From the NCBI GenBank assembly GCA_027485795.1, contig JAIXQK010000139.1:1-16977 (forward strand): 16,977 bases of DNA. The letters run 5' to 3'. The notes beneath the pieces were generated by a model. That model worked only from the letters and a program-made list of their open reading frames with translations, had not been told where the DNA came from and made no database searches. Below are positions 2,090-13,739 of the stretch, piece by piece (the stretch's first letter is position 1; each line of letters starts with the position of its first letter). Both the position numbers and the translations under genes were made by a program. Source of the stretch: Oxalobacteraceae bacterium. Its GTDB lineage: Bacteria > Pseudomonadota > Gammaproteobacteria > Burkholderiales > Burkholderiaceae_D.

Positions 2090-2290
2090 GGCAAGTTCTC
2101 AACGTTATGGGTAAGCCAAGTTCATTCGGGCAAGCAACCTCGGGTAATGAGATGGTATGAAATAAATGACTAAATGTCTATTTCAAGGAAGTTACTTTTA
2201 AGAGAGCGCATTAGATGAATTAGTTGTCAATGCTGTATCAGTAAATCGATTTGGCATGTTAGTACTTATAAAACAATTGGCACGCGGACC
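1772..2290. repeat. Diverged 519-bp direct repeat, copy A (318 bp coding + 201 bp upstream non-coding)
   Basis: Aligns colinearly and without net indels to 5309-5827. Homology starts exactly at the last sense codon of the HExxH ORF and ends at cacgcggacc / cacgagggcc. Confidence 0.85.
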
Positions 2291-2407
2291 TTGGGCGGTA
2301 TTGCACCGATGCAGCGGCTTGCCATGGCTGCATAACGCTACTTCTACCGACCGTTAAAAATGGGACGATTACCGAAGCAAATTTAAAGTATTACTCGGGA
2401 TTTGACT

Positions 2408-2902
2408 ATGCGACAGTGTATTTTTTTACTGCTTACATTGACTTGTTCGATCTCGACAGCCAGCGATCTCTGTATTGCAAATGAGAGAAATCTGTTCAGC
2501 TGTCGGCTTGAGGCCAACAGAAAATATGTCTCGTTGTGCCAGTCGAACGCCGATAATAGAAAAATAATCTATAGATTCGGAAGGCTAGGGCAGATCGAAA
2601 TATCTCTACCAAATGGTGGCTCACCACCTCCAAAAACCAGCCACGAGAGGATCGGTCCTGCGATTACTCAATGGGTAGAGCATATAATTTTCAAGAATGG
2701 CGAATTTTTATATGTTCTCTCATCGTTGCAAGGAATGTCGAATTCGCTAAATGTTTATAAAGGGAATAGACAGATCGCCGAAATGAATTGTGAATATCAG
2801 ACTGAAGCAGGTTTTCGTATCGTTGAAGTTTCTGAGCTGCTTAGCCGACTTGGTTTCAGCGCCGAAAAAAATTTTTGTTCCGCTTGTCCGTCAGCGTTTT
2901 AA
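2408..2902 (+). CDS. Hypothetical secreted Cys-rich protein
   Basis: The ORF 2402..2902 has its first ATG at 2408, preceded by GGGA. The N-terminus MRQCIFLLLTLTCSISTASD looks like a Sec signal. Cysteines are scattered through the mature part. I recognise no family. The local sequence is AT-rich. Confidence 0.55.
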   Translation: MRQCIFLLLTLTCSISTASDLCIANERNLFSCRLEANRKYVSLCQSNADNRKIIYRFGRLGQIEISLPNGGSPPPKTSHERIGPAITQWVEHIIFKNGEFLYVLSSLQGMSNSLNVYKGNRQIAEMNCEYQTEAGFRIVEVSELLSRLGFSAEKNFCSACPSAF

Positions 2903-2994
2903 ACACTTATCTAGGAAAGTTGTACAATTTTTTAAATCCCTTGGAAAACGAATTAACGAGAGACAAGGCCAAGGGAGTTGGCTCCGACTTAGCG

Positions 2995-4059
2995 CTACGC
3001 GCAGCCCTCATGAGTCGAGAGAACCGCAGTGATCTTTGACAGACGCTGGAGCTGCGGACCAGACATATTCGGTAGTTCAAGCCGAAACGTTTCGTCATTG
3101 CCCCAAGCCTTACGAACCAGGATGATCACCAGCTGATACTCGTCACGGTTATAGTAGCCGCGGAATAAATAGGCGCCTCTATCAATATACGGACCATCGT
3201 ATCTGATGGCAGGATTTACCAAATGAGGCGATTGTGGCTTGTAGAAAATTCTTCCGAGGCGCTGCCCTGCGCCATCCTCCAAATTGAGGCAGATACCCAG
3301 ATTATTGAGGTCTTGTGCAATATGCTCCAAAAGTATCGGGTCAACATCGGCTTCAACTGAACAGTCGTACGCATGTTGAATAGATAGGTAGCCCATCTTG
3401 TATTTTCGCGTGGGTAGCTCCTCAGTGCGTGCTCTTTCGTATTCTTTGGTTGCCGCGCAAAGGGACTGTAACATTTTTGCATTTATAGAAACGGTTACCT
3501 CAACGATGTTTGAAATCTTGGACCCGTTCCGAACAGTCTCTACTTGACCTGCTTTCACGTCGAATAACTTCGTAGCCATCCCTTTGGCTACATGCTCAAA
3601 TAGCCTACGAGCAGCGATGTCGCGGTCGATTTCGGAGCGTATTTGCTGCTGCCCTTTGTCTATCTGCCGACGGATTTCATTTCCACTCACTGCCCGGCTG
3701 TCTTGCGATGCAAGAAGGCGTCTTTCAATTGCTGTTGGCGAAACGGTTACTGACATATGAATTCGGTGAAGGCCGTCTTTGGGGTCCACGGTCCGCGAGA
3801 TCTCCCGGAAGCTGTCGATCACTCCCCGAGCATATGAGACGTCATCCTCGAATAATTTGTCTTCAACAACCCTACGCTCCGATAGATTCAGCGAGCCGTA
3901 CGCTAGTTGAACCGCATCGCGGAATGCTGCTCGGCGAGCCTCCTCCGCAGTTGTTCCCACACCGGTCACTAAAACGGTTACGTTGTTGAGGGGAATTTCG
4001 GCGCAACCAACTAAAATTGCAGTCCAAACCACGATCAAACAGAACCATACGCGCCCCAT
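2995..4059 (-). CDS. Hypothetical lipoprotein with LPP20/FlgP-like N-terminal pattern
   Basis: 354-aa ORF. The signal plus lipobox reads MGRVWFCLIVVWTAILVGC (L-V-G-C). The mature N-terminus VLVTGVGTTAEEARRAAFRDAVQLAYG...GVIDSF...IHMSVTV resembles the LPP20-type lipoprotein pattern (recalled from memory, not searched). Confidence 0.65.
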   Translation of the reverse strand: MGRVWFCLIVVWTAILVGCAEIPLNNVTVLVTGVGTTAEEARRAAFRDAVQLAYGSLNLSERRVVEDKLFEDDVSYARGVIDSFREISRTVDPKDGLHRIHMSVTVSPTAIERRLLASQDSRAVSGNEIRRQIDKGQQQIRSEIDRDIAARRLFEHVAKGMATKLFDVKAGQVETVRNGSKISNIVEVTVSINAKMLQSLCAATKEYERARTEELPTRKYKMGYLSIQHAYDCSVEADVDPILLEHIAQDLNNLGICLNLEDGAGQRLGRIFYKPQSPHLVNPAIRYDGPYIDRGAYLFRGYYNRDEYQLVIILVRKAWGNDETFRLELPNMSGPQLQRLSKITAVLSTHEGCA

Positions 4060-4077
4060 GATTTACTCGTCTGATAG

Positions 4078-4731
4078 TTAGAACTTATCCGCGTCAGCGG
4101 CGCGCCGCCGCTCTGAGGGCTTCGCCGGGAATGATTGGGGCTCGCTTGAACCTGATTCTGGTCTTGAGCTCGAACCTGAACGATTCATTGATTGGTCGAG
4201 CTGGTCCGCACCAGCCATGCTCTGACGATTAATTCCAACAACGACTTTTACTTCTTCGGACCTCTCATCATAAGAACGCTCAATAATTCGCACACCTCTT
4301 AGGACTGCTTGAGCACTACTTCCAGTCACTTCCTCTAAACTTTCTACGACCTTGCGTGTATTTTCTTTCGTCCAAGATGCGCCCTGGGTGCCAGAAGTCC
4401 GGCTTGCGGTACTGAGACTCTCATCAACTTCACGCAAAGTACGATCTGAACTAGAAACTTGTCGCATGTATCGAGCAATATTGGCCTTGGCTTTTTCTTC
4501 AGCGATTATGTAAGCCTTGTTTATTCCACGACGGTCAGGAAAATCCACTGGATGGAAGAAGGTCGACTTAAGACTTAGCAGTTGTCCACTGGCGTCAAAT
4601 TTCAGCTCCACGCCCAAGCCATCATCTGACACTACGGCTTGATTGCCGCCCTCAATCAATGCAACCCCCGACTGAGATGTTGAGCAAAAGCCAACCAGGA
4701 GCAAAGTAAAGACACAGCGATATAGTTTCAT
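4078..4731 (-). CDS. Hypothetical secreted protein with LPP20/FlgP-like pattern and Ser-rich disordered tail
   Basis: 217-aa ORF ending 19 nt upstream of the next gene on the same strand. Its signal MKLYRCVFTLLLVGFCSTSQSG has Phe at position -1, so it is not a canonical lipobox. AYIIAEEKAKANIARYM...SSAQAVLRGVRIIERSYDERSEEVKVVVGI matches the LPP20-like pattern. The C-terminus is rich in S, P, E and R. Confidence 0.6.
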   Translation of the reverse strand: MKLYRCVFTLLLVGFCSTSQSGVALIEGGNQAVVSDDGLGVELKFDASGQLLSLKSTFFHPVDFPDRRGINKAYIIAEEKAKANIARYMRQVSSSDRTLREVDESLSTASRTSGTQGASWTKENTRKVVESLEEVTGSSAQAVLRGVRIIERSYDERSEEVKVVVGINRQSMAGADQLDQSMNRSGSSSRPESGSSEPQSFPAKPSERRRAADADKF

Positions 4732-4889
4732 GTGTGGTTCTTTCAGTTGATCATTGATCAGAAGAATCTCAAGTCCCCCAAAATGAGTTAAGGTTAGGGC
4801 GACGTCTTTCAGTCCCTAGTCGGGTTTTTACCAGTCGTGCCTATGATTAACAGCTTTTGACTTACGTTTGTGGCTGATTTTTTACGGGA

Positions 4890-5174
4890 TTACTGTGCCG
4901 AACGCTTCGGATTTGCTATTTCGCGTTCTCGAGCTTCGCGCTGTCGTATGGCTTCTGCAATGCGCTTTTGCTTGGCCTCCTCAGCTAGCCTAGCTTGCTC
5001 AACCATTGTTGTATATGACTCGAAATCAGGCTCCACTTTTCGCTCAATTCCGAATAGCTTTTCGACCGTAGAGGCGATCGGGTAGGGCTTACTAGCACAT
5101 CCAGCGCACGTCACTATCATTGCAATATACATTGCAACCAGTTGAGCATTGACAATTGTATTTGGGATTTGCAT
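4890..5174 (-). CDS. Small probable lipoprotein with charged helical tail
   Basis: 94-aa ORF, first gene of the same-strand trio. It has a hydrophobic segment ending in VTCAGC (lipobox-like A-G-C). The C-terminal half AEEAKQKRIAEAIRQREAREREI is a charged helix. The start is uncertain because the SD is weak and there is an internal Met at MYIAMIV. Confidence 0.5.
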   Translation of the reverse strand: MQIPNTIVNAQLVAMYIAMIVTCAGCASKPYPIASTVEKLFGIERKVEPDFESYTTMVEQARLAEEAKQKRIAEAIRQREAREREIANPKRSAQ

Positions 5175-5305
5175 GTGGCCTAATGTTTTTTAACCAGCCT
5201 TATTAGTAATACAAGCCCAAGCGCTTCCACCGGATCAACGATCCCCATATTCATTCGCATTCCATTTACTGACTAGTGACTAAGTTACTTAAGACGCGTT
5301 ACTCG

Positions 5306-5626
5306 TCAATGATAGTTTCCCTGGAAACAATGCCTTACTTCGTGTCCTAGTTCGTGACCGTTTGGTCGTTTTTTAGTAATAATTGTGTAATGATTATCTA
5401 CCCAAAAACTACAAGCTTCTACGCTATAACCGATACCCCCGAGCCCTCTGTGGCGACTTTCCTTTTCACAAGCTTGATTGATATTGTCAACATAAACCCA
5501 TGTTAACTGTATCGCACCGTATTTGTTCTTTTTGGCATCAAATCTGGCCATTGGATCGTTCCATTCTTGAGCCGTAGCGGAGGTCATCGGGATGAGCAGT
5601 GCTGCGGCAAGAAAGATTCGTTTCAT
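5306..5626 (-). CDS. Small secreted HExxH-motif protein, copy B
   Basis: 106-aa ORF MKRIFLAAALLIPMTSATAQE...HELGHEVRHCFQGNYH, a paralogue of 1700..2089. Its stop codon (tca on the + strand, 5306-5308) lies immediately outside the repeat homology. Confidence 0.65.
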   Translation of the reverse strand: MKRIFLAAALLIPMTSATAQEWNDPMARFDAKKNKYGAIQLTWVYVDNINQACEKESRHRGLGGIGYSVEACSFWVDNHYTIITKKRPNGHELGHEVRHCFQGNYH

Positions 5627-5842: not shown

Positions 5843-6283
5843 CTATTTGGCAAACCCAGCCCTTAGTGCCCCGCTCGCTGCCTCAATTTGTGGATCGAGT
5901 TCGCCAGCAAGCGTTGCTGCCTTAAGCGTCTGCAGCGTCGTTATCAGCTCTTCGCCCGACGCTAGTTCTATCGCATTTTTTCCCTTGGCTAGTTCAAGCA
6001 CCTTGCTGCCATACTTGACCGAGAGATTGATCTTGCCCGCATCATTAATCCAAAACCATTCCTTTACGCGCTTGACTGCTTCGATGGTTACTCGCTCGCC
6101 AGTCTGTTTATTGGTGACCGTGCGTAGACGCTTGGGGGCGTAGATTTCACCGGCGCGCTGTGCTTCGCAAAGCTCAATTTGCTCGTGGATTTTGGCAGCG
6201 AGTTTATTGCGGCGATGCGCTACTGGCGAGATGGTGCGATTTTTCTTGCTGGCGACAAGTTTTAGTGCGTTGAGGGTACTCAT
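5843..6283 (-). CDS. Conserved hypothetical protein (family I recall from proteobacterial genomic islands; function unknown)
   Basis: The ORF runs 5843..6313. The ATG at 6283 is preceded by AAGGAG with a 5-nt spacer, giving MSTLNALKLVASKKNR...ASGALRAGFAK (146 aa). The N- and C-terminal motifs match a widespread uncharacterised family as I remember it. I cannot verify this without a search. Confidence 0.65.
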   Translation of the reverse strand: MSTLNALKLVASKKNRTISPVAHRRNKLAAKIHEQIELCEAQRAGEIYAPKRLRTVTNKQTGERVTIEAVKRVKEWFWINDAGKINLSVKYGSKVLELAKGKNAIELASGEELITTLQTLKAATLAGELDPQIEAASGALRAGFAK

Positions 6284-6461
6284 GTGTGCTCCTTGTAGAG
6301 TTGTACTGCACACACAAGTTATGACGCTTTTGTCGAGCGGACGACCGGAATCTGCCTTATTTAATCAGCATTTGCCAGATTGCGGTCAGAACCCCACAGA
6401 AATCACATCATGTAGTTAGGATTTTCTTTGGTCTTGATAATTCTGCAGAAACGACAGAAGT

Positions 6462-6725
6462 TTAATATTTGTTGATGTCATCTTCCGTTAGCAGTGTTTG
6501 GTCCGATTTTGTTCTGAAGTACTTGCGAAGGATCACAATCGCAACAAAAGACCCAATAGCAAACACAATGACATCACGACTTAGAGAAAAAGAGCTCGTC
6601 AAAAACTGAACGATCGCAACGCACAGCGTACCAGCTGCGAAGCCTAGGCAAATAAGTGTGAGCGTAAAGATTTCACAAATGACCAGTACGAAGGTCAGGA
6701 TCAGCGATATTTGATAGTACTTCAT
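6462..6725 (-). CDS. Small integral membrane protein, possible NfeD-like partner lacking the OB-fold domain
   Basis: 87-aa ORF starting 7 nt after the SPFH stop on the same strand. It has two or three hydrophobic helices and a short polar tail. The gene order SPFH then small membrane protein mirrors E. coli qmcA-ybbJ. Confidence 0.55.
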   Translation of the reverse strand: MKYYQISLILTFVLVICEIFTLTLICLGFAAGTLCVAIVQFLTSSFSLSRDVIVFAIGSFVAIVILRKYFRTKSDQTLLTEDDINKY

Positions 6726-6732
6726 GACGGCG

Positions 6733-7593
6733 TCACTTTATAAGTTTTTCGATGCCACCACTCAGAGCAGATACGATATCGGTTGGTAGAACAACCAGCT
6801 TGGTATTTGATCCAGATGAGATATCTGTCACCGATTTTGCTTGAATTTTTTTCACCTCAAAGTCGATCGCGCTCTGTCCGCCGTTTGCGATTGCTTCAGA
6901 AACAACTTTGACTGCATAGGCTTCTGCGTCTGCTAGGATCTTTTTTGCTTCAGCTTGTTTTTGTGCGGTGTAGAGATCCGCATCTGCCTTTAGTTGTGCT
7001 GCTTGCTTTTCCCCCTCGGCAGATGTAACTTGCCCACGCCGTTTTCTCTCTGCATTTAGCTGGATTTGCATTGCCTCACGCGTCGACTGATCAACTTCGA
7101 CTTCGGTCACCTCCACGCGAGTCAGCTTAATTCCCCATTCGTCGGCGATATGATTAAGCTCGGATTCAATTTCTGTGACGATCGTTCTTCGATTGGTTTG
7201 TACACCATCAAGGTCAGTTTTTCCGATTAAGCTCCTGACCGTACCCTCGATAACAGTTTTGATGCCAGCCGAGAGGTTTTCGATGCGGTATTTCGACTTG
7301 GATGGATCGATGATCCGGTACAAGATCGCTAGCCGAATATCAATCTGCACATTGTCCTGTGTTATTGCTCGAATAGGGTCCGGGGGCAGTTGGGTTTCTT
7401 GCACCGACACTCGATATCGGATTGTTTCAACAAAGGGTACGATGAGCTGCAAGCCTGCGCCAAGGGTACGGTTGTATTTGCCCAGTCGCTCGACTACCCA
7501 ATTCTCGCTTTGTGGAACGATATTGATCGCAAACTTTAGCGAAATAACAATCAGCGCTGCTAGCACCAGGTAAACCAGTGTTGAAAATTCCAT
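6733..7593 (-). CDS. SPFH / band-7 (stomatin-, QmcA-like) membrane protein
   Basis: 286 aa with AAGGAG 8 nt upstream of the ATG at 7593. It has an N-terminal TM anchor followed by NIVPQSENWVVERLGKYNRTLGAGLQLIVPF...WGIKLTRVEVTEVEV and an Ala/Lys/Glu-rich coiled coil, the typical SPFH architecture. Confidence 0.9.
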   Translation of the reverse strand: MEFSTLVYLVLAALIVISLKFAINIVPQSENWVVERLGKYNRTLGAGLQLIVPFVETIRYRVSVQETQLPPDPIRAITQDNVQIDIRLAILYRIIDPSKSKYRIENLSAGIKTVIEGTVRSLIGKTDLDGVQTNRRTIVTEIESELNHIADEWGIKLTRVEVTEVEVDQSTREAMQIQLNAERKRRGQVTSAEGEKQAAQLKADADLYTAQKQAEAKKILADAEAYAVKVVSEAIANGGQSAIDFEVKKIQAKSVTDISSGSNTKLVVLPTDIVSALSGGIEKLIK

Positions 7594-7740
7594 CGCAGCT
7601 TCTCCTTCGGATTAATCTAAGCCCAATCGCTTCTGGGCTAGTCTCTACGGTCGCCCCACAAATACTACACGAGAAGTATTAGTAATTAAATTGCTATGAT
7701 TTTTGTAATACTAGCGCGTTGGTGGTTAGCACCGTTTTAA

Positions 7741-7813
7741 AAGCCCTACAGCGCGTTTGTATAGGCGCTGGGTATTCTAGGTTGCGCTGCTTAAAAAACA
7801 GCGTGTAGGGCTT
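7741..7813. repeat. Nested inverted-repeat element (10-bp outer stem enclosing two GCGC(T)G hairpins)
   Basis: The outer arms aagccctaca (7741-7750) and tgtagggctt (7804-7813) are perfect complements. Inside, cagcgc/gcgctg (7749-7754 / 7765-7770) and gcgctg/cagcg (7784-7789 / 7799-7803) can form two further hairpins. Confidence 0.5.
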
Positions 7814-7827
7814 GTACAGCATCGCAA

Positions 7828-7852
7828 GTTATCCACATAAGCTGTGGACAAC
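7828..7852. promoter_or_regulatory. 10-5-10 palindrome containing a perfect DnaA box (TTATCCACA) facing a near-perfect one (TTGTCCACA)
   Basis: The sequence is gttatccaca-taagc-tgtggacaac, with one arm mismatch. TTATCCACA (7829-7837) equals the DnaA-box consensus. The site can also be read as 9-7-9, like the core site of a tyrosine recombinase. Confidence 0.5.
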
Positions 7853-7991
7853 GGCTCAGTTTCGCAACAGATCAGCGCCCAACAACTCGGTTGTATCGGC
7901 GTGCACAGAAATGTGGCAATCATCCTACGAGTTTAACAACCACGTTGACTGTTGTGGCTGTTGATTTTGCAACGAGATCGCTGGTGTCTAG

Positions 7992-8025
7992 AACCACATC
8001 AAATGCATGTTTGATGTGGTTTTTT
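7992..8025 (+). terminator. Hairpin plus T-tract (possible intrinsic terminator or protein-binding palindrome)
   Basis: aaccacatcaaa (7992-8003) pairs perfectly with tttgatgtggtt (8010-8021) across the 6-nt loop tgcatg, and is followed by tttt. The stem has only 4 of 12 G:C pairs, so the terminator call is tentative. There is no T-tract on the other strand. Confidence 0.4.
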
Positions 8026-8158
8026 GCTGAGCAGTGCTAAGTCATTGAATTTTGGAAGGAATCATTTTAAGGGTATTCCGCTAAAAATTGGTCGTCCAAA
8101 CAAAGCAAAGAAATTACGCTGTGTATGTGTTTAAGATTTGGTTAGAAAGGACGCACAC

Positions 8159-8731
8159 ATGCCCAAGCAAGCAAAAACCCTTCAAGCCCAAGAATTGCGC
8201 CGAGTGCTGGATTACCTTGCAACGCGCCCTCATGCATTACGTAATCGTGTGATGCTATTAACAACCTATTACGCTGGGCTGCGGGTAGGGGAGGTCGCCA
8301 ACTTACGCTACGGCGATATTGTCGATGGGCTCGGGCATATCCGCGATGAAGTTAGGCTTGATCCCGGGCAGACCAAAGGACGCTTTGGTCGGGTGGTGTT
8401 TATCAATATCAAGCTCAAGCGCGAGCTCGCGGCTTACCTTGCTCGGTTTCCGCAAACAGCCGCAGACCAAAAGTTGTTCGCTACCCAAAAGCGTGCAACT
8501 GGCTTCACGCCCAATACACTGGCGCAGCATTTTTATGGTCTCTATCGCGGCGCTGGCATCGAAGGGGCGAGCAGTCACTCGGGTCGGCGAACGTTTATTA
8601 CCAATCTCGCGAGTAAAGGCGTTGGGGTGAGGGTGCTGATGAGCCTAGCGGGTCACAAGCATATCGGTACGACTCAAGCTTATATCGATGTAAATGATGA
8701 GATGAAGCGCCAGGCAGTGGAACTTGTCTAG
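8159..8731 (+). CDS. Small (190-aa) tyrosine recombinase, catalytic domain only (FimB/FimE-sized)
   Basis: The ATG at 8159 is preceded by AAAGGA; the ORF track begins at a TTG at 8138. The catalytic signature is present: AGLRVGEV (Arg), TKGRFGRVV (Lys), HSGRRTF (His-x-x-Arg), LAGHKHIGTTQAYIDV (His, Tyr). There is no N-terminal core-binding or arm-binding domain. Confidence 0.85.
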   Translation: MPKQAKTLQAQELRRVLDYLATRPHALRNRVMLLTTYYAGLRVGEVANLRYGDIVDGLGHIRDEVRLDPGQTKGRFGRVVFINIKLKRELAAYLARFPQTAADQKLFATQKRATGFTPNTLAQHFYGLYRGAGIEGASSHSGRRTFITNLASKGVGVRVLMSLAGHKHIGTTQAYIDVNDEMKRQAVELV

Positions 8732-9111
8732 TCTCGTTTGACCCAGCGGTGTTCACCTCGCCAGCCTATTTCTTCGTCGGATAGTCCGGTTACGCGTTGA
8801 TAGTTTTGATCGGCTTGGCGCTGAACATCGGCATACCGCATGAATGCTTTGATGATGTCGATCTCGGTTGGCTCAACCGTCTGTGCATCGCGACCTATTT
8901 GAGCAGCAAGATACTTTTGCACCCAAGCGTGTTGCCAAGCTTTGGGATAGACCTTGACAGTCCGCTTGGGTGGTGAAGTGGGGACTGTGGGTGTGGGGAT
9001 TTGGGCAGCCGCTGACTGCTGCTGTTGTTGAATCAAGCGTTTCTGTTGTAGTTGTTGCTGACTGATTTTCAGTATGGGTGTTGCAGCTGGGGCAAATTCA
9101 AGAAAGCGCAT
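8728..9111 (-). CDS. Hypothetical protein with Gln-rich and Pro-rich N-terminal low-complexity region
   Basis: 127-aa ORF with AGGA about 9 nt upstream of the ATG at 9111. It lies downstream of and on the same strand as the 301-aa ORF. I recognise no family. Confidence 0.5.
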   Translation of the reverse strand: MRFLEFAPAATPILKISQQQLQQKRLIQQQQQSAAAQIPTPTVPTSPPKRTVKVYPKAWQHAWVQKYLAAQIGRDAQTVEPTEIDIIKAFMRYADVQRQADQNYQRVTGLSDEEIGWRGEHRWVKRD

Positions 9112-9168
9112 GTTGTATATCCTGGGTAGATCCTATTCCATGTATTTATAGGTTCTAGGATTACGGTA

Positions 9169-10068
9169 TCAAAGTGATTGCAGCAGTAGCCTCGCCTGAA
9201 CCATGGCTTCAATCGCTTTTTGTCGCTTGATCATGGGTTTGACTTTTCGCTCGTAGTAGGTTTTTCGGACGGAAACACCACTGTTGATTTTTTCGCGCCT
9301 GCGATTGTGCGCGATCTTGATCTGCTGAGCTGACAATACCCAAATTTGTTCGTAATTGAATGAAAGACCAGTGTCGATAGGTTCAAGCGACGGGAACACA
9401 CCGCGCGCAGCGTTTTCAGCCAGGTAAAACGATTCCTTCAGATGTTTGCTGACCAATATCCCGAGACTGGTGCGCGCTTCAAGATTATCAATGGTGTTTT
9501 TGGTGGCGGTTTTGAGCTCGTCTGTCCATTTACTTTTGAGCTTCACTTCTACCCCAAGCCGCCAATTTGAGATCTTTTTGCCGGTTTTGCGCTCAATGCG
9601 ACCCTTATCGTTGACTAATGCTAATCGTGCGTGCAGTGCGCTTAGCCGCACTTTATTCGTGAGAAATCTAATTGCCGAGCGCCGCTTGGATGATCGGTCC
9701 GCTTTTGCTTGACGGACAAAGGCGGTGAACTCCGCGATCAGTCTGTTTGGCGATTGTGCCAAGTCCACGGGATAGGCAATCAAATTCCCAGCATCGTTTG
9801 GATCGCGTAGCAAGTCTCTGCCCCGTTCCTCCCACCAGTCTTCGAATTCAGTTTCGTAGATATTTCCGCACAGTTCGTAGATCTCCAACACCCGTTTGAA
9901 GTCAGTTGGGAGTTGTCCTTTCTCGCTTTTCGTTAGTCCAACTGTTCGCTGCCGGTGGGCAAGCTGATAGCTGGGACTTGCTATCAAAAAGTCAAAAAAA
10001 GCCTCTTCCTTGTCCGTTGCATGCCGGGTGCTGGCCAGGAGGCTCAGGATTTTACGGTCAGTATTCAT
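9169..10068 (-). CDS. Hypothetical protein (about 299 aa)
   Basis: The long ORF is 9169..10074. The track start is a GTG at 10074 and the first ATG is at 10068. A perfect TATAAT (10080-10075 on the - strand) abuts the GTG, which puts the ATG about 7 nt downstream and raises the possibility of a leaderless mRNA. The C-terminus is basic. I recognise no family. Confidence 0.6.
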   Translation of the reverse strand: MNTDRKILSLLASTRHATDKEEAFFDFLIASPSYQLAHRQRTVGLTKSEKGQLPTDFKRVLEIYELCGNIYETEFEDWWEERGRDLLRDPNDAGNLIAYPVDLAQSPNRLIAEFTAFVRQAKADRSSKRRSAIRFLTNKVRLSALHARLALVNDKGRIERKTGKKISNWRLGVEVKLKSKWTDELKTATKNTIDNLEARTSLGILVSKHLKESFYLAENAARGVFPSLEPIDTGLSFNYEQIWVLSAQQIKIAHNRRREKINSGVSVRKTYYERKVKPMIKRQKAIEAMVQARLLLQSL

Positions 10069-10210
10069 AAACACATTATATGAAATAAGGTAATTAAGAT
10101 TTTATACAAAAGACAGTTCTTTCGCGATCGGGTTCAATCCGATCCATCGAAACGCCGCAAAGCGCTTCGGTGGAATTCAACCCAATTCATCTTTTGCGAA
10201 AGGCTTTGCC

Positions 10211-11179
10211 ATGACTACAACACTTGCGGCAGTACCGACCCAATCCCTGCCGATCAACGCGCCCACTAGCGCGCCACCGGTGACACTGACCAATCTGTTT
10301 CGACCCAAGGCAGCACAGGCGGCTGAGACCGCACTGACTAAACCAGTTCCAGCTGGCGTGGCGGGCGCTGTCGAGGTGGCGAATACCCTGCTGGCGAGCT
10401 ATGCCCAGCTCAAGGTTGAGGTGCTGGACCGCTCTGACCGTGCTTTATGGGCTTTGCTGGGTGAGGTGTATGCCTATGTAGCGGCGGTGGATGGGTCGCC
10501 CTTGAAGCGCGAGACGCGCGCTGAGTTGATTCGCCAGATTAGCCAACGTACGGGCTCATCGGTTTCCACGGCAGCGACGACTGCTGCGATTGTGGTGCGC
10601 TACATCTTTGCTGACCAATCCCGCCAGACCTGGAGTAACTACACGATTGCCATGGAAAAGGCAGCGGCTTTGGGTGTGACCACCGACAGCTTTGCGGGCT
10701 TTTTGGAGCAGTACGGCGGGGTCACCAAGGTGGTTGAGCACACGTTTGACTACCAGGCTGACGATGCAGCAACGGCTGCTGAGATTGCGCGCGAGCAGCG
10801 TGATACCAAGCAATCTCGCGTGGGCTTGGTGGGTCGCCTATGTACGGCACTGGCACATGCCTCCACGGTACAGCTGACCTATCGCGAGCCTTTGCATGTG
10901 TGGGTTCCAACCAAGCCTAAGAAGGCGGCGAAGGCTGCTAAATCAGCCGGTAAAGATGACAAGCTCGATCCCAAGTTCGAGAAGGGAAAGTTTGTGGTGT
11001 TTTTGACCGTACCGGACACCACAACAGGCACGTACCGAGTGGTCCAGGGCAACGTGTTTAATCGGGCAGTTGAAGAGCAGCTCTTGGCTGCAATGGCTGA
11101 GCGCATGGGTGCTGACGCCGACGAGTTGACCCAAGCGGTCGTCTCGCTTGAGCAAAGCATTAGCGGCGCTGCTGAATAG
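10211..11179 (+). CDS. Hypothetical Ala-rich protein with basic KPKKAAKAAKSAGK linker
   Basis: 322-aa ORF with AAAGG 7 nt upstream of the ATG. It is the first gene of the + strand operon that contains the polymerase-like gene. I recognise no family. Confidence 0.6.
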   Translation: MTTTLAAVPTQSLPINAPTSAPPVTLTNLFRPKAAQAAETALTKPVPAGVAGAVEVANTLLASYAQLKVEVLDRSDRALWALLGEVYAYVAAVDGSPLKRETRAELIRQISQRTGSSVSTAATTAAIVVRYIFADQSRQTWSNYTIAMEKAAALGVTTDSFAGFLEQYGGVTKVVEHTFDYQADDAATAAEIAREQRDTKQSRVGLVGRLCTALAHASTVQLTYREPLHVWVPTKPKKAAKAAKSAGKDDKLDPKFEKGKFVVFLTVPDTTTGTYRVVQGNVFNRAVEEQLLAAMAERMGADADELTQAVVSLEQSISGAAE

Positions 11180-11425
11180 ACCCCACTGTTTATACCCTGT
11201 GGGTCGAGCGTCTGGACACCTTGGGTGTGTCCAGATGCTGGATAGCCCCGTAATCGATACTCGAGTTGAAAAAAAGATCGGAGGATGGAATCGGCTTCGC
11301 CTCTTTCTATCGCTCTTTCCTTCTTTCCTGACCAATTTCTCTTTGCTCGAATTGATGGCAACTACGGGGGTTTGGGAAGCGCAGCTTCCTACTATAAGTG
11401 TGTGTATTTTTTAGAAAGTACAGCC

Positions 11426-12904
11426 ATGTTCAAGATTGTCATCGACCCGATCGTACTGCAGCGGCTCAGGAAGGCGTTTCCAAAGCCACCGCAGTGCGCA
11501 GACAAAGCCTTGGAGAAATACCGGCTATTACTTGAAGACCTCCTATTTAAAGCCATTCAGCGTGGACGCAGTGCCTATGAGCTGCGCTTTAACCTGTATT
11601 CGATCCCAGCCGCTGACTTATCGCATAAGGGTCCGCAGCTATCACTGGGTAAAGAGCGGCTACATGCATGGCTCAAAGCCCAACAGCTCGACCTCATACA
11701 AATCGTTGAGCTGGGTAGCAATCTGAATGGGCTGGTCTCAAAAGTACGACTGACCAACTTGGTCACCATCGATGATGGTTTAACCGGTCTTGCTCAGCAG
11801 CTAAGTTACGCGAAGAGCGCCGCTGAGGTTGACGCATTGCTGTGCGCAGATATGGCTGCGAACGCCAAGTTACTCAGCGAACTGTTCCCCGACTATTTCT
11901 CTTATCTATCAGCCCACCAGCGCGCCCAGGTATTTGACAACGTCCCCATCGATATCGGATCACTCGAAGCCTATATCGTCTGGCTCAATACCAAAGCGAC
12001 CAAGCTATCCGCCACCAAAATCCAGACCTATACCCGGCAGGCAATGATGATTCTGGCGGTTGCCAAGTACACAGGCGGGTATTTCCCAATGCGTAAAAAG
12101 CCAAGCGACTTTGGGCGTATGTATTACACCGGCACCAGTGTCCAGAATGTGGACAAGACGCTGCGACGAGCAATGCTGGGAGACTGCTGGGAATACGACA
12201 TCAAATCCGCAGTCATTGCCTGGAAGTTGACTTTTGCGCAGGAGCTAGCGGCTGCGCTCGATCCTAACCGAGCGGTTGAGCGCCAGTTCTGGGCATCTAT
12301 CTTGTATGTCACTGTGCGCTCCGAATTCATGCGCGATGTTCGTGCTGCCACCTTCGATCAATCAACGCTGCTACCGAGGGACGCACAAAACGCCCTGATC
12401 AAGCAGGCGGTCACCGCCATTGGGTTTGGTGCGCGCGCTAAGACCAGCGGCTGGCGCGAGGTGAATGGTACTTGGACGAATCCCTCCTTGGTCGAGCTAC
12501 TTAAAAACCCCGACGAGCGTAGCCGTTTCTTTGCTTGCCCAATGATTCAGCAATTCATTACCGAGCAGGCAGCACTCGACAAGTACCTGGCTCATGGCAT
12601 GAAGGCAGCGATGCCCGAGGTGTACTTCGGACCCTTAATTACCGCCAATACCAAGCCCAGCCCATCGAAAGCCGTGGCTTACCTCTATCAGCATCAAGAA
12701 ACCCAGGCAATGAATATTGCCCGCGCAGTTCTAGCCAAGCACGGCATACAGCCCATTGCCAACATTCATGACGCGTTCATCGTCAAGCGAAAATTACCAA
12801 CCGATGTGCTGCATGAGGTCATTTTTGAGATGCAGGAGCAGATGGAAAACCCCTATTTTTCCATGAAAGGAGACAAGCTTGAAGGATTCCGATTTGCCAT
12901 TTGA
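11426..12904 (+). CDS. Compact (492-aa) polymerase-like protein of the T7-RNAP / Pol I (family A) superfamily
   Basis: The ORF is open from 11285, but its first 47 codons are low-complexity and the ATG at 11285 abuts GGAGG with no spacer, so I start at Met 11426 (MFKIVIDP). Hand alignment from memory finds five matches. (1) DFGRMYYTGTSVQNV versus Pol I TGRLSSxxPNLQNI and T7 DWRGRVY. (2) Motif A, EYD258IKSAVI. (3) Motif B, K326QAVTAIGFG versus T7 KRSVMTLAYG. (4) YQHQETQAMNIARAV...KHGIQPIANIHD449AF versus T7 HSQDGSHLRKTV...KYGIESFALIHDSF. (5) The C-terminus GFRFAI versus T7 DFAFA. Confidence 0.6.
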   Translation: MFKIVIDPIVLQRLRKAFPKPPQCADKALEKYRLLLEDLLFKAIQRGRSAYELRFNLYSIPAADLSHKGPQLSLGKERLHAWLKAQQLDLIQIVELGSNLNGLVSKVRLTNLVTIDDGLTGLAQQLSYAKSAAEVDALLCADMAANAKLLSELFPDYFSYLSAHQRAQVFDNVPIDIGSLEAYIVWLNTKATKLSATKIQTYTRQAMMILAVAKYTGGYFPMRKKPSDFGRMYYTGTSVQNVDKTLRRAMLGDCWEYDIKSAVIAWKLTFAQELAAALDPNRAVERQFWASILYVTVRSEFMRDVRAATFDQSTLLPRDAQNALIKQAVTAIGFGARAKTSGWREVNGTWTNPSLVELLKNPDERSRFFACPMIQQFITEQAALDKYLAHGMKAAMPEVYFGPLITANTKPSPSKAVAYLYQHQETQAMNIARAVLAKHGIQPIANIHDAFIVKRKLPTDVLHEVIFEMQEQMENPYFSMKGDKLEGFRFAI

Positions 12905-13739
12905 TATTGAGTTTGACCGTGCTCTTAAAACTTTTGAGGAAAACATGACGACCTATCTGATCTTGACAGCGCCTGTTCCAGGCAATCGTGAAATATCAGC
13001 CGATACCAACGAGTCACTGGCATGTGAAATTTATGTAGCTATGTCGGGGCTAGCACCGGGCGACCGTAACCATGTAGCTTTGGCGTTAGCATCCGCACCC
13101 CAATCGATCGCGTTAGATCCTAGCCAAGCCATCGCTACGCTATCGATTCATACCAGTGGGTTAGTGCTATGGAAGCAGCGCTATCGCGCAACCTATATCT
13201 GCGCCCATCAACTTCACCTAGCAGCGATCGATCACGACTGCGAAGCGATCATTACCCACGCCGAGCAGTTATCAGTGCTTCTTGAGCAGGCAACTGAGCT
13301 GGGTGAGTATGACTTAACCGATCGTCTGGGCATCGATCGCTGCGGGGACAACTTTGACAACGAAGCGAATGCAGTCTTTGAAATCGCTGAAGAGCTTGAG
13401 GCGATTCTAGGATGCACAATCGCCGCCACACCCCAAGACGGGGGAGGCGAATTCGATGCGATTTGCTCCAACTGTGGCGAGCCGATGCACGATCATGGTG
13501 ATGAAGCCGCCTGGCACGTGGTCACCGCACAGGTTGCGGATGGTCACCCCTGCGATGTGTATTTCATATCTCACAGCATGGAGGAGGTCGATCAATTTGC
13601 AGCAGCAGTCCGTCCCAGGCTTGTGTGCACCAGTGCCTATACAACCTTAAGTGAGGCGCAGGCATTTGCTGATCAGCATTTACAGGGGTATGACGAAATC
13701 GATCCGAATGCAATGCATCTTTCGGATAACTTACATTAA
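12879..13739 (+). CDS. Hypothetical acidic protein with a Cys/His cluster (CSNCGEPMHDHGDEAAWH)
   Basis: 286-aa ORF from the TTG at 12879, with AAGGAG 6 nt upstream, overlapping the polymerase-like gene by 26 nt. The alternative start is the ATG at 12945, preceded by GAGGA. I recognise no family. Confidence 0.55.
   Translation: MKDSDLPFDIEFDRALKTFEENMTTYLILTAPVPGNREISADTNESLACEIYVAMSGLAPGDRNHVALALASAPQSIALDPSQAIATLSIHTSGLVLWKQRYRATYICAHQLHLAAIDHDCEAIITHAEQLSVLLEQATELGEYDLTDRLGIDRCGDNFDNEANAVFEIAEELEAILGCTIAATPQDGGGEFDAICSNCGEPMHDHGDEAAWHVVTAQVADGHPCDVYFISHSMEEVDQFAAAVRPRLVCTSAYTTLSEAQAFADQHLQGYDEIDPNAMHLSDNLH

What the first reader, a model, noticed from the sequence alone, without database searches (positions are those of the whole stretch)
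7594..8158. 565-bp ORF-free region with origin-like architecture
No ORF of 60 aa or more exists here on any frame. The region contains five notable elements. First, a perfect DnaA box facing a near-perfect one. Second, at least seven CCACA/TGTGG pentamers (7656, 7833, 7843, 7912, 7953, 7994, 8015), where roughly one would be expected for a pentamer plus its complement in 0.56 kb of even composition. Third, an AT-rich stretch (about 7675-7712, agtattagtaattaaattgctatgatttttgtaatact). Fourth, a nested inverted repeat. Fifth, a hairpin with a T-tract. DnaA-box clusters next to an AT-rich unwinding element are the standard layout of DnaA-dependent plasmid and chromosomal origins. A private polymerase gene lies 3.3 kb away.
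Basis: partly seen in the sequence, partly recalled or inferred. Interest (0 to 1): 0.62.

Follow-up and report, generated by a model that had tools for sequence, protein, structure and literature searches.

The report
Recombinase control region with DnaA boxes
The gene-free 565 bases are not a textbook replication origin: about 150 bases came in with a neighbouring membrane-protein gene pair, and about 420 bases are a conserved control and DNA-cutting region for a small recombinase of a mobile island, which in this lineage also holds two sites for the host replication initiator DnaA.

Summary

- **Left part (7594-7740).** This stretch, including the AT-rich tract, is lineage-specific DNA next to the SPFH gene pair. 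It is absent from the paralogous island in the same genome.
- **Right part (7741-8158).** This is a conserved non-coding leader of the 190-aa tyrosine recombinase that has a catalytic domain only (8159-8731). It recurs on contig C122 of this genome and upstream of the same gene in about 80 islands, mostly betaproteobacterial.
- **Contents of the leader.** It holds a 12-6-12 palindrome (7992-8021), conserved flanking motifs and the recombinase promoter and ribosome-binding region. The palindrome is kept as a structure with many different arm sequences. In one group of related islands, homology begins inside it.
- **DnaA boxes.** The facing pair (7829-7851) looks real. Box 1 is invariant in 8 copies, box 2 varies mainly at the consensus N, and the 5-bp spacer varies in sequence but not in length. 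Only about 10% of family members carry the pair.
- **Weak points of the origin reading.** No conserved AT-rich unwinding element lies beside the boxes, and the CCACA excess does not survive correction for choosing the word afterwards.

My best reading is a DNA-processing site (transfer origin or resolution site) plus promoter for the recombinase, with DnaA as an accessory input. An origin is not excluded (about 0.2). The scan found this module before in other genomes.

The parts
7594..7740 (-). Lineage-specific DNA next to the SPFH start codon, probably the SPFH promoter and 5' UTR. It includes the AT-rich stretch 7675-7712 (81.6% AT) with the AGTATTA/TAATACT inverted repeat.
   Evidence: Homology to the paralogous island on C122 starts only at 7741. 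Only weak promoter-like hexamers were found: TTTAAT at 7690 and TAGTAT at 7667 on the - strand, 7 of 12 matches. The SPFH plus 87-aa gene pair occurs without the recombinase in two other genomes.
7741..7818 (+). Block A. It carries the conserved motifs CCCTACAGCGC (7744-7754) and AAAAAACAGCGTGTAGGGCTTGTAC (7793-7817). In this copy they form the 'nested inverted repeat' (7738-7750 / 7804-7816).
   Evidence: A profile search finds it in 22 loci (21 on the recombinase strand), about 300 or 415 bp before the recombinase start in the best-scoring ones. The sequence motifs are conserved, but the pairing is not supported by covariation.
7829..7851 (.). Facing (convergent) pair of DnaA boxes: TTATCCACA (7829-7837, +), the 5-bp spacer TAAGC, then TGTGGACAA (7843-7851, which reads TTGTCCACA on the - strand).
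   Evidence: In 8 copies box 1 is invariant, the spacer is fixed in length but free in sequence, and box 2 is TGTGNATAA in 6 of 8 with N varying. The geometry matches E. coli DARS1 boxes I/II (PMC6868365). It is one of 4 such pairs in the genome.
7859..7983 (+). Short direct repeats with a T[TC]GCAAC core (7862-7868 and 7967-7973). In this copy they extend to about 18 nt: GTTTCGCAACAGATCAGCG and ATTTTGCAACGAGATCGCTG. The span also holds a degenerate copy (7924-7942) of the family palindrome TGCGA-N3-TCGCA.
   Evidence: There are 15 plus-strand copies in 7 loci against 0.5 in shuffles and 2 on the minus strand. They sit at homologous positions, so they represent roughly 3 conserved sites. Sequences are shown.
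7992..8025 (+). 12-6-12 palindrome, AACCACATCAAA TGCATG TTTGATGTGGTT, followed by a T run (8020-8025). It is a candidate cleavage or core site for the recombinase. In this copy it also has the form of an intrinsic terminator for + strand transcripts.
   Evidence: -20 kcal/mol, z = -5.35. The paralog keeps a hairpin at this place with a different arm sequence. A strong hairpin lies 200 to 100 bp upstream of the start in 37% of 78 loci, against 0.8% of shuffles and 5% of other windows. There are 43 distinct arm sequences, and the U-tract is not conserved. Homology between related islands begins inside or at the palindrome.
8036..8061 (+). Conserved motif GCTAAGTCATTGAAT (8036-8050) followed by GGAAGGAA (8054-8061), on the 3' side of the palindrome. 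Its partner motif CTAAATA on the 5' side is degenerate in this copy.
   Evidence: It is conserved in most of the 78 aligned leaders.
8090..8158 (+). Recombinase promoter and leader. It holds the conserved stretch GGTCGTCC...AAAGAAATTACGCT, with a tentative -35 TCGTCC (8092-8097) and -10 TACGCT (8115-8120), then a T-rich stretch and the Shine-Dalgarno sequence AAAGGA (8146-8151).
   Evidence: The blocks are conserved across the family, in forms such as TTGCCC-N18-TATGCT in other members. The hexamer assignment is my own inference; the consensus scans found nothing strong.
8159..8731 (+). A 190-aa tyrosine recombinase with a catalytic domain only. All catalytic residues are present (R42, K73, H140, R143, H166, Y175).
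   Evidence: Pfam PF00589 covers residues 7-181 and no N-terminal domain is found. The closest solved structure is XerA 4a8e, catalytic domain only. Relatives were found at 80 loci.

Best explanation
The gap is a composite of two parts.

**Left part.** The left ~150 bp (7594-7740) came in with the SPFH plus 87-aa gene pair and probably holds that pair's promoter. The AT-rich stretch belongs to this part.

**Right part.** The right ~420 bp (7741-8158) is the conserved cis-acting leader of the small tyrosine recombinase at 8159-8731. That enzyme has a catalytic domain only and forms a backbone module of a family of tRNA-integrated islands.

**Proposed mechanism.** I infer that the recombinase cleaves DNA at or beside the 12-6-12 palindrome (7992-8021). 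The conserved flanking motifs position it there.
- Slightly more likely, this nick starts conjugative mobilisation of the excised island. That would make the region a transfer origin (oriT) next to a relaxase of the tyrosine-recombinase type, as in MobK, TcpM and MpsA.
- Otherwise the enzyme performs strand exchange that resolves multimers of the excised circle.

The last ~70 bp are the recombinase promoter and ribosome-binding site. In this copy the palindrome plus T6 also ends + strand transcription coming from upstream.

**Role of the DnaA boxes.** In one sub-lineage, which includes this window, a ~130-190-bp insert adds a facing pair of DnaA boxes and short direct repeats. Host DnaA probably binds the pair as a head-to-head dimer. 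It would then act as an architectural or cell-cycle input to the module, or to a neighbouring origin function.

**Shown versus inferred.** Shown here: conservation, architecture, intact catalytic residues and homology breakpoints. Inferred: cleavage at the palindrome, DnaA binding, and the choice between transfer and resolution.
For: **The leader is conserved with the recombinase gene.**
- Window 7741-8721 matches C122 11013-10036 at 69.5%. The non-coding blocks match at 73-77%, at least as well as the coding part.
- Upstream blocks are conserved in 78 aligned leaders from 80 loci, mostly in Betaproteobacteria with some in Alphaproteobacteria.
- The gene upstream of the leader varies between loci (an HUH Rep of family PF23343, c6, c16, c20 and others; SPFH in this window), while the leader stays with the recombinase.

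**The palindrome is the most consistent feature.**
- It is kept as a structure with 43 distinct arm sequences.
- In five Duganella-group loci, identity jumps from 27-30% to 88-95% inside its left arm. This leaves mismatched 'hybrid' arms in 3 of the 5.
- L059 and L060 start to match at its left edge.

**The enzyme looks active but lacks a DNA-clamping domain.** All catalytic residues are present.

**Published parallels.** The characterised tyrosine-recombinase-like proteins without a core-binding domain (MobK, TcpM, MpsA) are relaxases or presumed relaxases, and their oriT lies upstream of the gene (PMC8152469, PMC9299015). A preprint (10.64898/2026.01.13.699239) reports that such relaxases are the commonest relaxase type in the chromosomes it surveyed and that 96% of them lie near an integrase.

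**Island context.** This island has a separate full-length integrase beside tRNA-Lys, and I found no other recognisable mobilisation gene in the window.

**DnaA pair.** Its conservation pattern is and its genome-wide rarity.
Against:
- Similarity of the recombinase to MobK, TcpM or MpsA could not be tested. pIGRK is not in the plasmid collection.
- Relatives at 35-40% identity sit beside par/rep genes on plasmids and also occur in lytic Caulobacter phages. This fits resolution better than transfer. Those distant relatives also lack the palindrome architecture.
- Homology breakpoints coincide with the palindrome in only 2-3 of about 8 groups of related loci.
- A strong hairpin is detectable in only 37-63% of loci.
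- DnaA has no known role at an oriT or a resolution site. Its boxes, together with direct repeats, are what an origin would have.
- The most constant neighbouring gene (9169-10074) has a confident predicted fold with no PDB match, so it gives no functional clue.
Confidence: 0.5

Rival explanations
1. **Vegetative origin of the excised island.** Host DnaA on the facing boxes, with an element protein on the short direct repeats, would open nearby DNA. The island's replication genes (10211-13739) would then copy the circle. On this reading the recombinase next door is the multimer resolvase, as in plasmid ori-res clusters.
For: - The DnaA boxes are conserved, and three relatives have 1-2 extra exact boxes 140-160 bp upstream.
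- T[TC]GCAAC direct repeats lie beside the boxes.
- The host's only cluster of three or more boxes, in the hemE-priA gap on C146, contains the same facing 5-bp pair.
- In relatives the non-coding region lies downstream of a variable gene that is an HUH Rep in 17 loci. The proven SGI1 oriV likewise lies just downstream of rep and has iterons, a DnaA box and AT-rich DNA (PMC7433901).
- An earlier report from this scan calls 11426-12904 a TV-Pol-type polymerase. I did not test that.
Against: - The box module is absent from about 90% of family members. In the closest relatives that lack it, Block A is followed directly by the block before the palindrome.
- No conserved AT-rich unwinding element lies within 330 bp of the boxes. 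The window's AT tract is lineage-specific.
- Only two boxes are present and they face each other, rather than forming an array in one direction.
- The window has no Rep, c5 or c6 gene.
- The AT-richest DNA lies instead at 10067-10115, beside the replication operon.
- An HUH Rep would use a nick site, not DnaA.
Confidence: 0.2
2. **Purely transcriptional control region.** It would consist of divergent promoters for SPFH and the recombinase, operator palindromes, and a terminator that insulates the recombinase from upstream + strand transcription. DnaA would act as a repressor or activator, as it does at dnaA, nrdAB and mioC. No DNA cleavage would take place here.
For: - The hairpin plus T6 is a strong intrinsic-terminator form in this copy.
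- In most relatives a + strand gene lies upstream of the hairpin.
- The last ~70 bp look like a promoter and ribosome-binding site.
- Block A is conserved as sequence, not as structure, as protein-binding sites would be.
- It is established knowledge that DnaA boxes regulate promoters.
Against: - The U-tract is missing in about half of the family members although the hairpin persists.
- About 170 to 420 bp of non-coding DNA conserved as well as the coding sequence is a lot for a single small gene.
- Homology breakpoints fall inside the palindrome arm.
- No sigma-70-like promoter reaches the scan threshold.
Confidence: 0.2
3. **DARS-like or DnaA-titrating element carried by the island.** The facing pair would reactivate or sequester host DnaA and so alter host initiation to the island's benefit.
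For: - The orientation and 5-bp spacing are the same as in E. coli DARS1 boxes I/II, with one perfect and one imperfect box (PMC6868365).
- Metagenome loci near hemN/rdgB that carry the same pair also have a box-III-like TGTGGA 3 bp further on.
Against: - Box III is part of the three-box DARS core that PMC6868365 calls essential for nucleotide exchange. It is absent on both strands in the window and the paralog, and absent on the + strand in the other six copies shown.
- Facing pairs with 4-bp and 6-bp spacers are about as common in viral contigs (97 and at least 118 hits, against at least 116 for 5 bp). The 5-bp spacing is therefore not special in that collection.
Confidence: 0.05
4. **Fim/Mrp-type invertible promoter switch.** The small recombinase would flip a promoter-bearing segment that drives either SPFH or its own gene.
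For: - The recombinase is the size of FimB/FimE and is transcribed divergently from an operon, as mrpI is. That comparison rests on my own knowledge.
- NCBIfam DNA-invertase models hit it weakly: E = 1e-5, 25 bits against a cut-off of 221.
- A 20-nt inverted repeat, 75% complementary, spans 7682-7701 / 8098-8117.
Against: - The left arm of that repeat lies in lineage-specific DNA that the paralog and the rest of the family lack.
- No conserved pair of inverted repeats brackets a segment in the family.
- The conserved repeats flanking the hairpin are direct, not inverted.
Confidence: 0.03

Closest known systems
Mobilisation modules with tyrosine-recombinase-like relaxases (class MOB_M): MobK with the 456-bp oriT1 of plasmid pIGRK, TcpM of pCW3, and MpsA/MpsB with oriT and the sgm-sRNA of SGI1 (PMC8152469, PMC9299015)
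   Same: - The protein has a tyrosine-recombinase catalytic domain with its catalytic Tyr and no core-binding or arm-binding domain.
- A repeat- and hairpin-rich non-coding region of a few hundred bp lies directly upstream of the gene.
- The module sits in an island that has its own integrase. In SGI1 the island also replicates.
- In relatives an HUH Rep gene precedes the non-coding region.
   Different: - No sequence relationship to MobK, TcpM or MpsA was shown. By the authors' own account, those three are not similar to one another either.
- At 190 aa the protein is shorter than MobK (about 28 kDa with its His tag) and MpsA (catalytic Tyr at residue 319).
- No MpsB-like partner was found.
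- DnaA boxes are not described in those oriTs.
- Nicking and mobilisation are untested.
Recombinase genes with their core site just upstream (Cre/loxP of P1, TnpI/IRS of Tn4430, ResD/rfsF of F, Xer/dif). This comparison rests on my own knowledge.
   Same: - The layout is two inverted arms around a 6-bp spacer (12-6-12), adjacent to the recombinase gene.
- The catalytic domain is most like the Xer proteins.
- Hybrid arms occur at homology breakpoints.
   Different: - Those enzymes all have an N-terminal core-binding domain, which this one lacks.
- Their arms are conserved in sequence, whereas here the arms differ widely between relatives (43 distinct arm sequences).
Iteron-type oriV of a replicating mobilisable island: the SGI1 oriV (PMC7433901)
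   Same: It is a non-coding region in an integrative island that holds DnaA box(es) and direct repeats. In relatives it lies downstream of a Rep-type gene.
   Different: [quoted passage not shown]
- Here there are two facing boxes, only short repeats, no conserved AT-rich element, and no rep gene in the window.
DARS1/DARS2 core of E. coli (PMC6868365; sequence checked)
   Same: Both have a facing pair of DnaA boxes separated by 5 bp, one perfect and one imperfect, with the flanks GTTATCCAC and TGTGGA(T/C)AAC.
   Different: Box III is missing. The pair lies on a mobile element next to a recombinase gene rather than in a chromosomal regulatory locus.

Membership tests
DnaA-dependent iteron-type origin (oriV) | One or more DnaA boxes conserved among relatives | tested here: met
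   The boxes at 7829-7851 are conserved in 8 copies with variation at the consensus N. They are present in only about 10% of the family.
DnaA-dependent iteron-type origin (oriV) | An AT-rich unwinding element next to the boxes, conserved among relatives | tested here: not met
   The AT stretch at 7675-7712 lies in DNA that the paralog lacks. No conserved 30-nt window of 75% AT or more lies within 330 bp of the boxes in 7 loci.
DnaA-dependent iteron-type origin (oriV) | An array of three or more iterons of 17-22 bp | tested here: inconclusive
   There are two imperfect ~18-nt repeats 105 bp apart and 2-4 T[TC]GCAAC cores per locus. There is no regular array.
DnaA-dependent iteron-type origin (oriV) | An adjacent initiator (rep) gene | tested here: not met
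   The window has no c5 (HUH Rep) or c6 homolog. Relatives do have one upstream.
DnaA-dependent iteron-type origin (oriV) | Supports autonomous replication | not testable with these tools
   This needs a suicide-vector assay.
DARS-type DnaA-reactivating sequence | Boxes I and II head-to-head with a 5-bp spacer | tested here: met
   PMC6868365.
DARS-type DnaA-reactivating sequence | Box III 3 bp after box II, in the same orientation | tested here: not met
   No TGTGNATAA-like 9-mer follows on either strand in the window or the paralog, nor on the + strand in the other six copies.
MOB_M mobilisation module (tyrosine-recombinase-like relaxase plus oriT) | Tyrosine-recombinase catalytic domain with its catalytic Tyr, and no core-binding or arm-binding domain | tested here: met
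   PF00589 covers residues 7-181 of 190. The catalytic residues are R42, K73, H140, R143, H166 and Y175.
MOB_M mobilisation module (tyrosine-recombinase-like relaxase plus oriT) | A cis site with inverted and direct repeats in the intergenic region preceding the gene | tested here: inconclusive
   The architecture is present and conserved. Its function as an oriT is unknown.
MOB_M mobilisation module (tyrosine-recombinase-like relaxase plus oriT) | Site-specific nicking and helper-dependent mobilisation that require the catalytic Tyr | not testable with these tools
   This needs mating and nicking assays.
MOB_M mobilisation module (tyrosine-recombinase-like relaxase plus oriT) | A match to the MOB_M profile or to MobK, TcpM or MpsA | not tested
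   pIGRK is not in the plasmid collection, and no MOB_M profile is available here.
Core-type tyrosine recombination site (lox/dif/FRT-like) | Two inverted arms of 11-13 bp around a 6-8 bp spacer | tested here: met
   Arms 7992-8003 and 8010-8021 with the spacer TGCATG.
Core-type tyrosine recombination site (lox/dif/FRT-like) | The cognate recombinase has a core-binding domain that clamps the site | tested here: not met
   No N-terminal domain is present.
Core-type tyrosine recombination site (lox/dif/FRT-like) | Recombinant junctions fall at the site | tested here: inconclusive
   Identity steps up inside the left arm in 5 loci and at the left edge in one pair. Other groups break elsewhere.
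Fim-type invertible switch | Conserved inverted repeats bracketing a promoter-bearing segment | tested here: not met
   The only bracketing inverted repeat (7682-7701 / 8098-8117, 75% complementary) has one arm in lineage-specific DNA.
Intrinsic terminator | A GC-containing stem followed by a U-tract, conserved among relatives | tested here: inconclusive
   The feature is met in the window. About half of the relatives lack the U-tract.

The most novel reading that the evidence does not exclude
A lineage of betaproteobacterial islands has placed an oriC/DARS-style head-to-head DnaA-box pair inside the DNA-processing leader of a minimal tyrosine recombinase or relaxase. Host DnaA status would then gate when the excised island is nicked, transferred or copied. 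Linking the chromosomal initiator to a tyrosine-recombinase-type mobilisation or resolution module has not, to my knowledge, been described.
Probability: 0.15. Interest if true: 0.7.

Novelty: new variant of a known kind. Interest (0 to 1): 0.42.

Why it matters
The small recombinase and its leader form a widespread, uncharacterised backbone module of genomic islands in freshwater and soil Burkholderiales.

- **If it is a mobilisation module.** That would explain how these islands, which lack classical relaxases, move between cells. It would also add a very small member to the barely studied class of tyrosine-recombinase-like relaxases.
- **The DnaA-box pair.** It offers a simple, testable link between host replication control and island DNA processing.
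- **For annotation.** The result warns against calling an origin from DnaA-box look-alikes plus any nearby AT-rich DNA. Here the AT-rich tract and the boxes have different evolutionary histories.

Tried and rejected
- **Known RNA families.** An Rfam scan of the window found only tRNA-Lys. Polynucleobacter-1 RNA occurs in relative L009, about 0.9 kb upstream of the recombinase and outside the leader.
- **DNA matches.** A DNA search with 6400-8800 found nothing in the plasmid or phage collections.
- **Block A as a folded RNA or DNA.** RNAalifold gave no consensus structure, and pair counts equalled the shuffled controls. I rejected this reading.
- **A hidden upstream exon or small ORF.** The in-frame 'GRPNK' stretch at 8090-8134 is closed by a TAA, and the paralog differs by indels that are not multiples of three. 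I rejected this.
- **Promoter scans.** Nothing reached 8 of 12 matches; there were only weak 7-of-12 candidates.
- **SPFH leader conservation.** Two distant SPFH cassettes share no upstream DNA with the window and have no recombinase nearby.
- **Special status of the 5-bp spacing.** The controls with 4-bp and 6-bp spacers gave similar counts in viral contigs, so no claim can be made. Of 236 loci carrying the 5-bp pattern, only one is a recombinase module.
- **Distant plasmid homologs.** Those in Legionella, Paracoccus, Piscirickettsia and Azospirillum lack the palindrome architecture.
- **The conserved neighbour 9169-10074.** Its AlphaFold model is good (mean pLDDT 81), but there is no PDB match with E of 0.001 or better.
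- **Variable upstream genes and other island ORFs.** They gave no informative Pfam hits.
- **A right-hand junction for a 'cassette' model.** None was found after the recombinase stop codon.
- **Comparison with MobK.** pIGRK is not held in the collection.
Full report
**Setting**

The window is contig C93 of a 3.24-Mb, 54.5% G+C genome. Its closest relatives are freshwater Oxalobacteraceae and Polynucleobacter-type Burkholderiales.

The gene order is as follows:

| Coordinates | Strand | Feature |
|---|---|---|
| 2-1678 | + | CHAT/TPR protein |
| 1700-5626 | mixed | unknown genes |
| 5843-6313 | - | DUF6641 protein |
| 6462-6725 | - | 87-aa ORF |
| 6733-7593 | - | SPFH/Band-7 protein |
| 7594-8158 | | the gap under study |
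| 8159-8731 | + | 190-aa tyrosine recombinase, catalytic domain only |
| 8728-10074 | - | two unknown genes |
| 10211-13739 | + | three-gene operon, no family hits |
| 13736-14218 | - | 160-aa ORF, unknown |
| 14311-15699 | - | full-length integrase |
| 15862-15937 | - | tRNA-Lys(UUU) |
| 16072 onwards | - | cpoB/ybgF-like gene |

This is a tRNA-Lys island. A 45-nt repeat of the tRNA 3' part lies on another contig (C54), so the far end of the island is probably not in this window.

**Check of the observation**

All listed features are at the stated coordinates. Their weight differs.

- **Pentamers.** The CCACA/TGTGG count of 7 has P of about 0.001 for that word. However, 55% of dinucleotide shuffles contain some pentamer pair with 7 or more copies, and TTAAA and CAGCG also reach 7. 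Four of the seven copies belong to two palindromes, and the other three are not conserved.
- **AT-rich tract.** The 38-nt tract is 81.6% AT, but the AT-richest DNA in the window is at 10067-10115.
- **DnaA boxes.** The pair is unremarkable within the window but rare in the genome. There are 44 TTATNCACA sites, 16 perfect boxes and only four facing pairs with a 5-bp spacer.
- **Polymerase.** The '3.3 kb away polymerase' gave no hit in Pfam, NCBIfam, PHROGs or PDB sequences. An earlier report from this scan calls it TV-Pol-like; I did not test that.

**The gap is a composite**

A second island of the same family lies on contig C122. Window 7741-8721 aligns to C122 11013-10036 at 69.5%. The non-coding blocks align at 73-77%, at least as well as the coding part. 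Left of 7741 there is no similarity.

So 7594-7740, which includes the AT-rich stretch, is lineage-specific DNA beside the SPFH plus 87-aa pair. That pair occurs as a cassette in two other genomes without the recombinase and without shared upstream DNA.

In 80 related loci the recombinase has a recurrent neighbourhood:
- a large integrase;
- a DUF6641 gene;
- a variable + strand gene, which is an HUH Rep of family PF23343 in 17 loci;
- 300-900 bp of non-coding DNA;
- the recombinase;
- a roughly 300-aa unknown gene, corresponding to window 9169-10074;
- either c4 plus an AAA ATPase or, as in this window, a 322-aa protein followed by the polymerase-like gene.

In this window the SPFH cassette occupies the slot of the variable gene, and no c5 or c6 homolog exists in C93.

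**Anatomy of the conserved leader (7741-8158)**

Alignments of 20 and of 78 leaders show the following, from left to right.

- **Block A.** The motifs CCCTACAGCGC and AACAGCGTGTAGGGCTTGTAC are detectable in 22 loci, about 300 or 415 bp upstream of the start in the best-scoring ones.
- **Optional insert.** Seven of 82 loci, plus one metagenome copy (L207), carry an insert of about 130-190 bp with the DnaA boxes and T[TC]GCAAC direct repeats.
- **Small palindrome.** TGCGA-N3-TCGCA, degenerate in the window.
- **Main hairpin.** The motif CTAAATA precedes a hairpin 100-200 bp upstream of the start, and GCTAAGTCATTGA follows it.
- **Promoter and ribosome-binding site.** Two conserved blocks, with a tentative -35 TCGTCC at 8092-8097 and -10 TACGCT at 8115-8120, precede the Shine-Dalgarno sequence and the ATG.

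The window's 'nested inverted repeat' is Block A. Across 15 homologs its pairing is no better than shuffled controls (56.9% against 56.1%) and RNAalifold finds no structure. It is therefore conserved as sequence, not as a fold.

**The hairpin**

In the window the hairpin is a perfect 12-6-12 palindrome followed by T6 (-20 kcal/mol, z = -5.35).
- The paralog keeps a hairpin at the same place with a different arm sequence, CAAAGCTTA/TAAGCTTTG.
- Family-wide, a strong hairpin (score 10 or more) occurs in this 100-nt slot in 37% of 78 loci. The figure is 0.8% for shuffles and 5% for other real windows. There are 43 distinct 10-nt arms among 49 hairpins.
- The U-tract is missing in about half of the loci, so termination is not the conserved role, although this copy could well terminate + strand RNA.

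That explains the 'orphan terminator': in most relatives a + strand gene lies upstream, and here the SPFH cassette has replaced it.

**Breakpoints at the palindrome**

- Among five Duganella, Rugamonas and related loci, pairwise identity is 27-30% upstream. It is 47% in the outer left arm and 88-95% from the inner left arm onwards. Three of the five are left with non-complementary outer arms.
- L059 and L060 begin to match at the left edge of the hairpin, and L070 and L071 begin 180 bp upstream of the start codon.
- Other groups break further upstream, so this evidence is suggestive rather than general.

It is what strand exchange or nick-and-rejoin at the palindrome between non-identical sites would leave behind. 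No reciprocal junction follows the recombinase stop codon, so the module is not a discrete cassette.

**The recombinase**

It has R42, K73, H140, R143, H166 and Y175, and aligns only to the catalytic half of XerA and XerD. It has no core-binding domain.

The experimentally studied tyrosine-recombinase-like proteins without that domain are the relaxases MobK and TcpM and the presumed relaxase MpsA. In each case the oriT lies upstream of the gene (PMC8152469, PMC9299015). A 2026 preprint reports that such MOB_M relaxases are the commonest relaxase type in the chromosomes it surveyed and that 96% lie near an integrase (10.64898/2026.01.13.699239).

Against a pure relaxase reading:
- relatives at 35-40% identity lie beside par/rep genes on Legionella, Piscirickettsia and Paracoccus plasmids, and also occur in lytic phiCbK-type phages;
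- those distant relatives lack the palindrome architecture.

A direct comparison with MobK was not possible.

**The DnaA boxes**

The eight copies are listed.
- Box 1 is TTATCCACA in all eight.
- The spacer is always 5 bp but free in sequence.
- Box 2 is TGTGNATAA in six copies, with N = C, T or A, and carries one change in the other two. The window's box 2 is TGTGGACAA.
- Three relatives have one or two further exact boxes, not arranged as a palindrome, 140-160 bp upstream. This argues for a protein that binds as a monomer, such as DnaA, rather than a dimeric operator protein.

The geometry equals that of E. coli DARS1, which reads TTATCCACT, 5 bp, TGTGGATAA, 3 bp, TGTGTATTA. PMC6868365 describes boxes I and II there as head-to-head with a 5-bp space. 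Box III, however, is absent here.

The host's only cluster of three or more boxes lies in the hemE-priA gap on C146 and holds four boxes. I identified hemE and priA from sequence motifs. That cluster also ends in a facing 5-bp pair. dnaA itself lies on C163.

The pattern is common in metagenomes and viral contigs. In a chromosomal group near hemN/rdgB it is followed by a box-III-like TGTGGA. Controls with 4-bp and 6-bp spacers are about as frequent in viral contigs, so that abundance says nothing specific about the spacing.

**Weighing the origin idea**

For:
- real-looking DnaA boxes;
- short direct repeats;
- a position downstream of a Rep-type gene in relatives;
- the SGI1 oriV as a precedent (PMC7433901).

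Against:
- the boxes occur in only about 10% of the family;
- no conserved AT-rich element lies within 330 bp of them;
- the window's AT tract has a different history;
- there are only two boxes and they face each other;
- the window has no initiator gene next to the region;
- the AT-richest DNA sits beside the replication operon instead.

I put the origin reading at about 0.2.

**Conclusion**

- **Best reading (about 0.5).** The left 150 bp are the SPFH promoter region. The right 420 bp are the cis-acting leader of the minimal recombinase. It contains a palindromic cleavage site flanked by conserved motifs, the recombinase promoter, and in this lineage a DnaA-binding insert. I rate a transfer origin slightly above a multimer-resolution site.
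- **Purely transcriptional reading.** About 0.2.
- **DARS-like and invertible-switch readings.** Unlikely.
- **Shown here.** Conservation, architecture, catalytic residues and breakpoints.
- **Inferred.** Cleavage at the palindrome, DnaA binding and biological role.
- **Prior reports.** Earlier reports from this scan described the same recombinase-plus-leader module in other genomes and reached a similar view. I confirmed the module independently and add the DnaA-box sub-lineage and the breakpoint evidence.

Noticed in passing
G000 contig C122:7351-13346 (loci L002/L003): A second island of the same family lies in the same genome. It carries the AAA ATPase, c4, c2, the small recombinase (10036-10601, -), a leader with a DnaA-box pair (10900-10922), c6, DUF6641 and c10. 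Integrase-like matches lie at C122 389-1858 and 18628-18744.
   Followed up: partly
G000 contig C146:14460-15200: This is the only cluster of three or more TTATNCACA boxes in the assembly, with four boxes. It sits in a 740-bp gap between genes that look like hemE and priA. It contains AT-rich runs and a facing 5-bp pair (TTATCCACAAAAATTGTGGATAG). It is a candidate chromosomal oriC, although dnaA lies on another contig (C163).
   Followed up: partly
window 10075-10210: The divergent gap between the 301-aa gene and the 10211-13739 operon holds the AT-richest DNA of the window (10067-10115, 84% AT). It also holds small palindromes, for example GATCGGGTT-A-AATCCGATC at 10126-10144. It is an alternative place to look for the island's origin.
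   Followed up: partly
window 9169-10074 (-): This is the most constant neighbour of the small recombinase (27 of 82 loci). It has a confident all-helical AlphaFold model (mean pLDDT 81.2, pTM 0.68), but no PDB match with E of 0.001 or better and no family hit.
   Followed up: yes
window 6462-7593 (-); L331, L332: The SPFH protein and the 87-aa small protein form a two-gene cassette. It recurs, at 55-57% and 38-44% amino-acid identity, in two distant genomes of the order without the island backbone. Matches were found in only 2 of the 400 other genomes searched.
   Followed up: partly
L009:1823-1956 (+): A Polynucleobacter-1 RNA (RF01718, 84.7 bits) lies between the DUF6641 gene and the recombinase leader in a related island. 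It occupies the slot that holds the Rep or c6 gene elsewhere and the SPFH cassette here.
   Followed up: no
L102, L105, L116, L143, L153 and others (metagenome contigs): A chromosomal locus near genes resembling hemN, rdgB and rph in diverse metagenome contigs carries TTATCCACA-N5-TGTGGATAAC. In most members TGTGGA follows 3 bp later. That is the three-box layout of the E. coli DARS core, so these may be DARS equivalents in other Proteobacteria.
   Followed up: no
L236, L237, L245 and others (viral contigs): Facing DnaA-box pairs are frequent in predicted viral contigs at spacers of 4, 5 and 6 bp. One phage group has a third box 4 bp upstream (CTTATCCACA). Another carries the pair inside the 3' end of a gene resembling an SNF2 helicase.
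   Followed up: no
G000 contig C54:16333-16377: A 45-nt exact copy of the 3' part of tRNA-Lys (window 15862-15906) lies on another contig. It is probably the distal attachment repeat of the island, which would make the island larger than the window.
   Followed up: no
L070 / L071 (one alphaproteobacterial contig, 23 kb apart, opposite orientation): Two 99.4%-identical 1.1-kb copies are present, each made of 180 bp of leader, the recombinase and a 90-aa gene. They form inverted repeats that bracket 23 kb.
   Followed up: no
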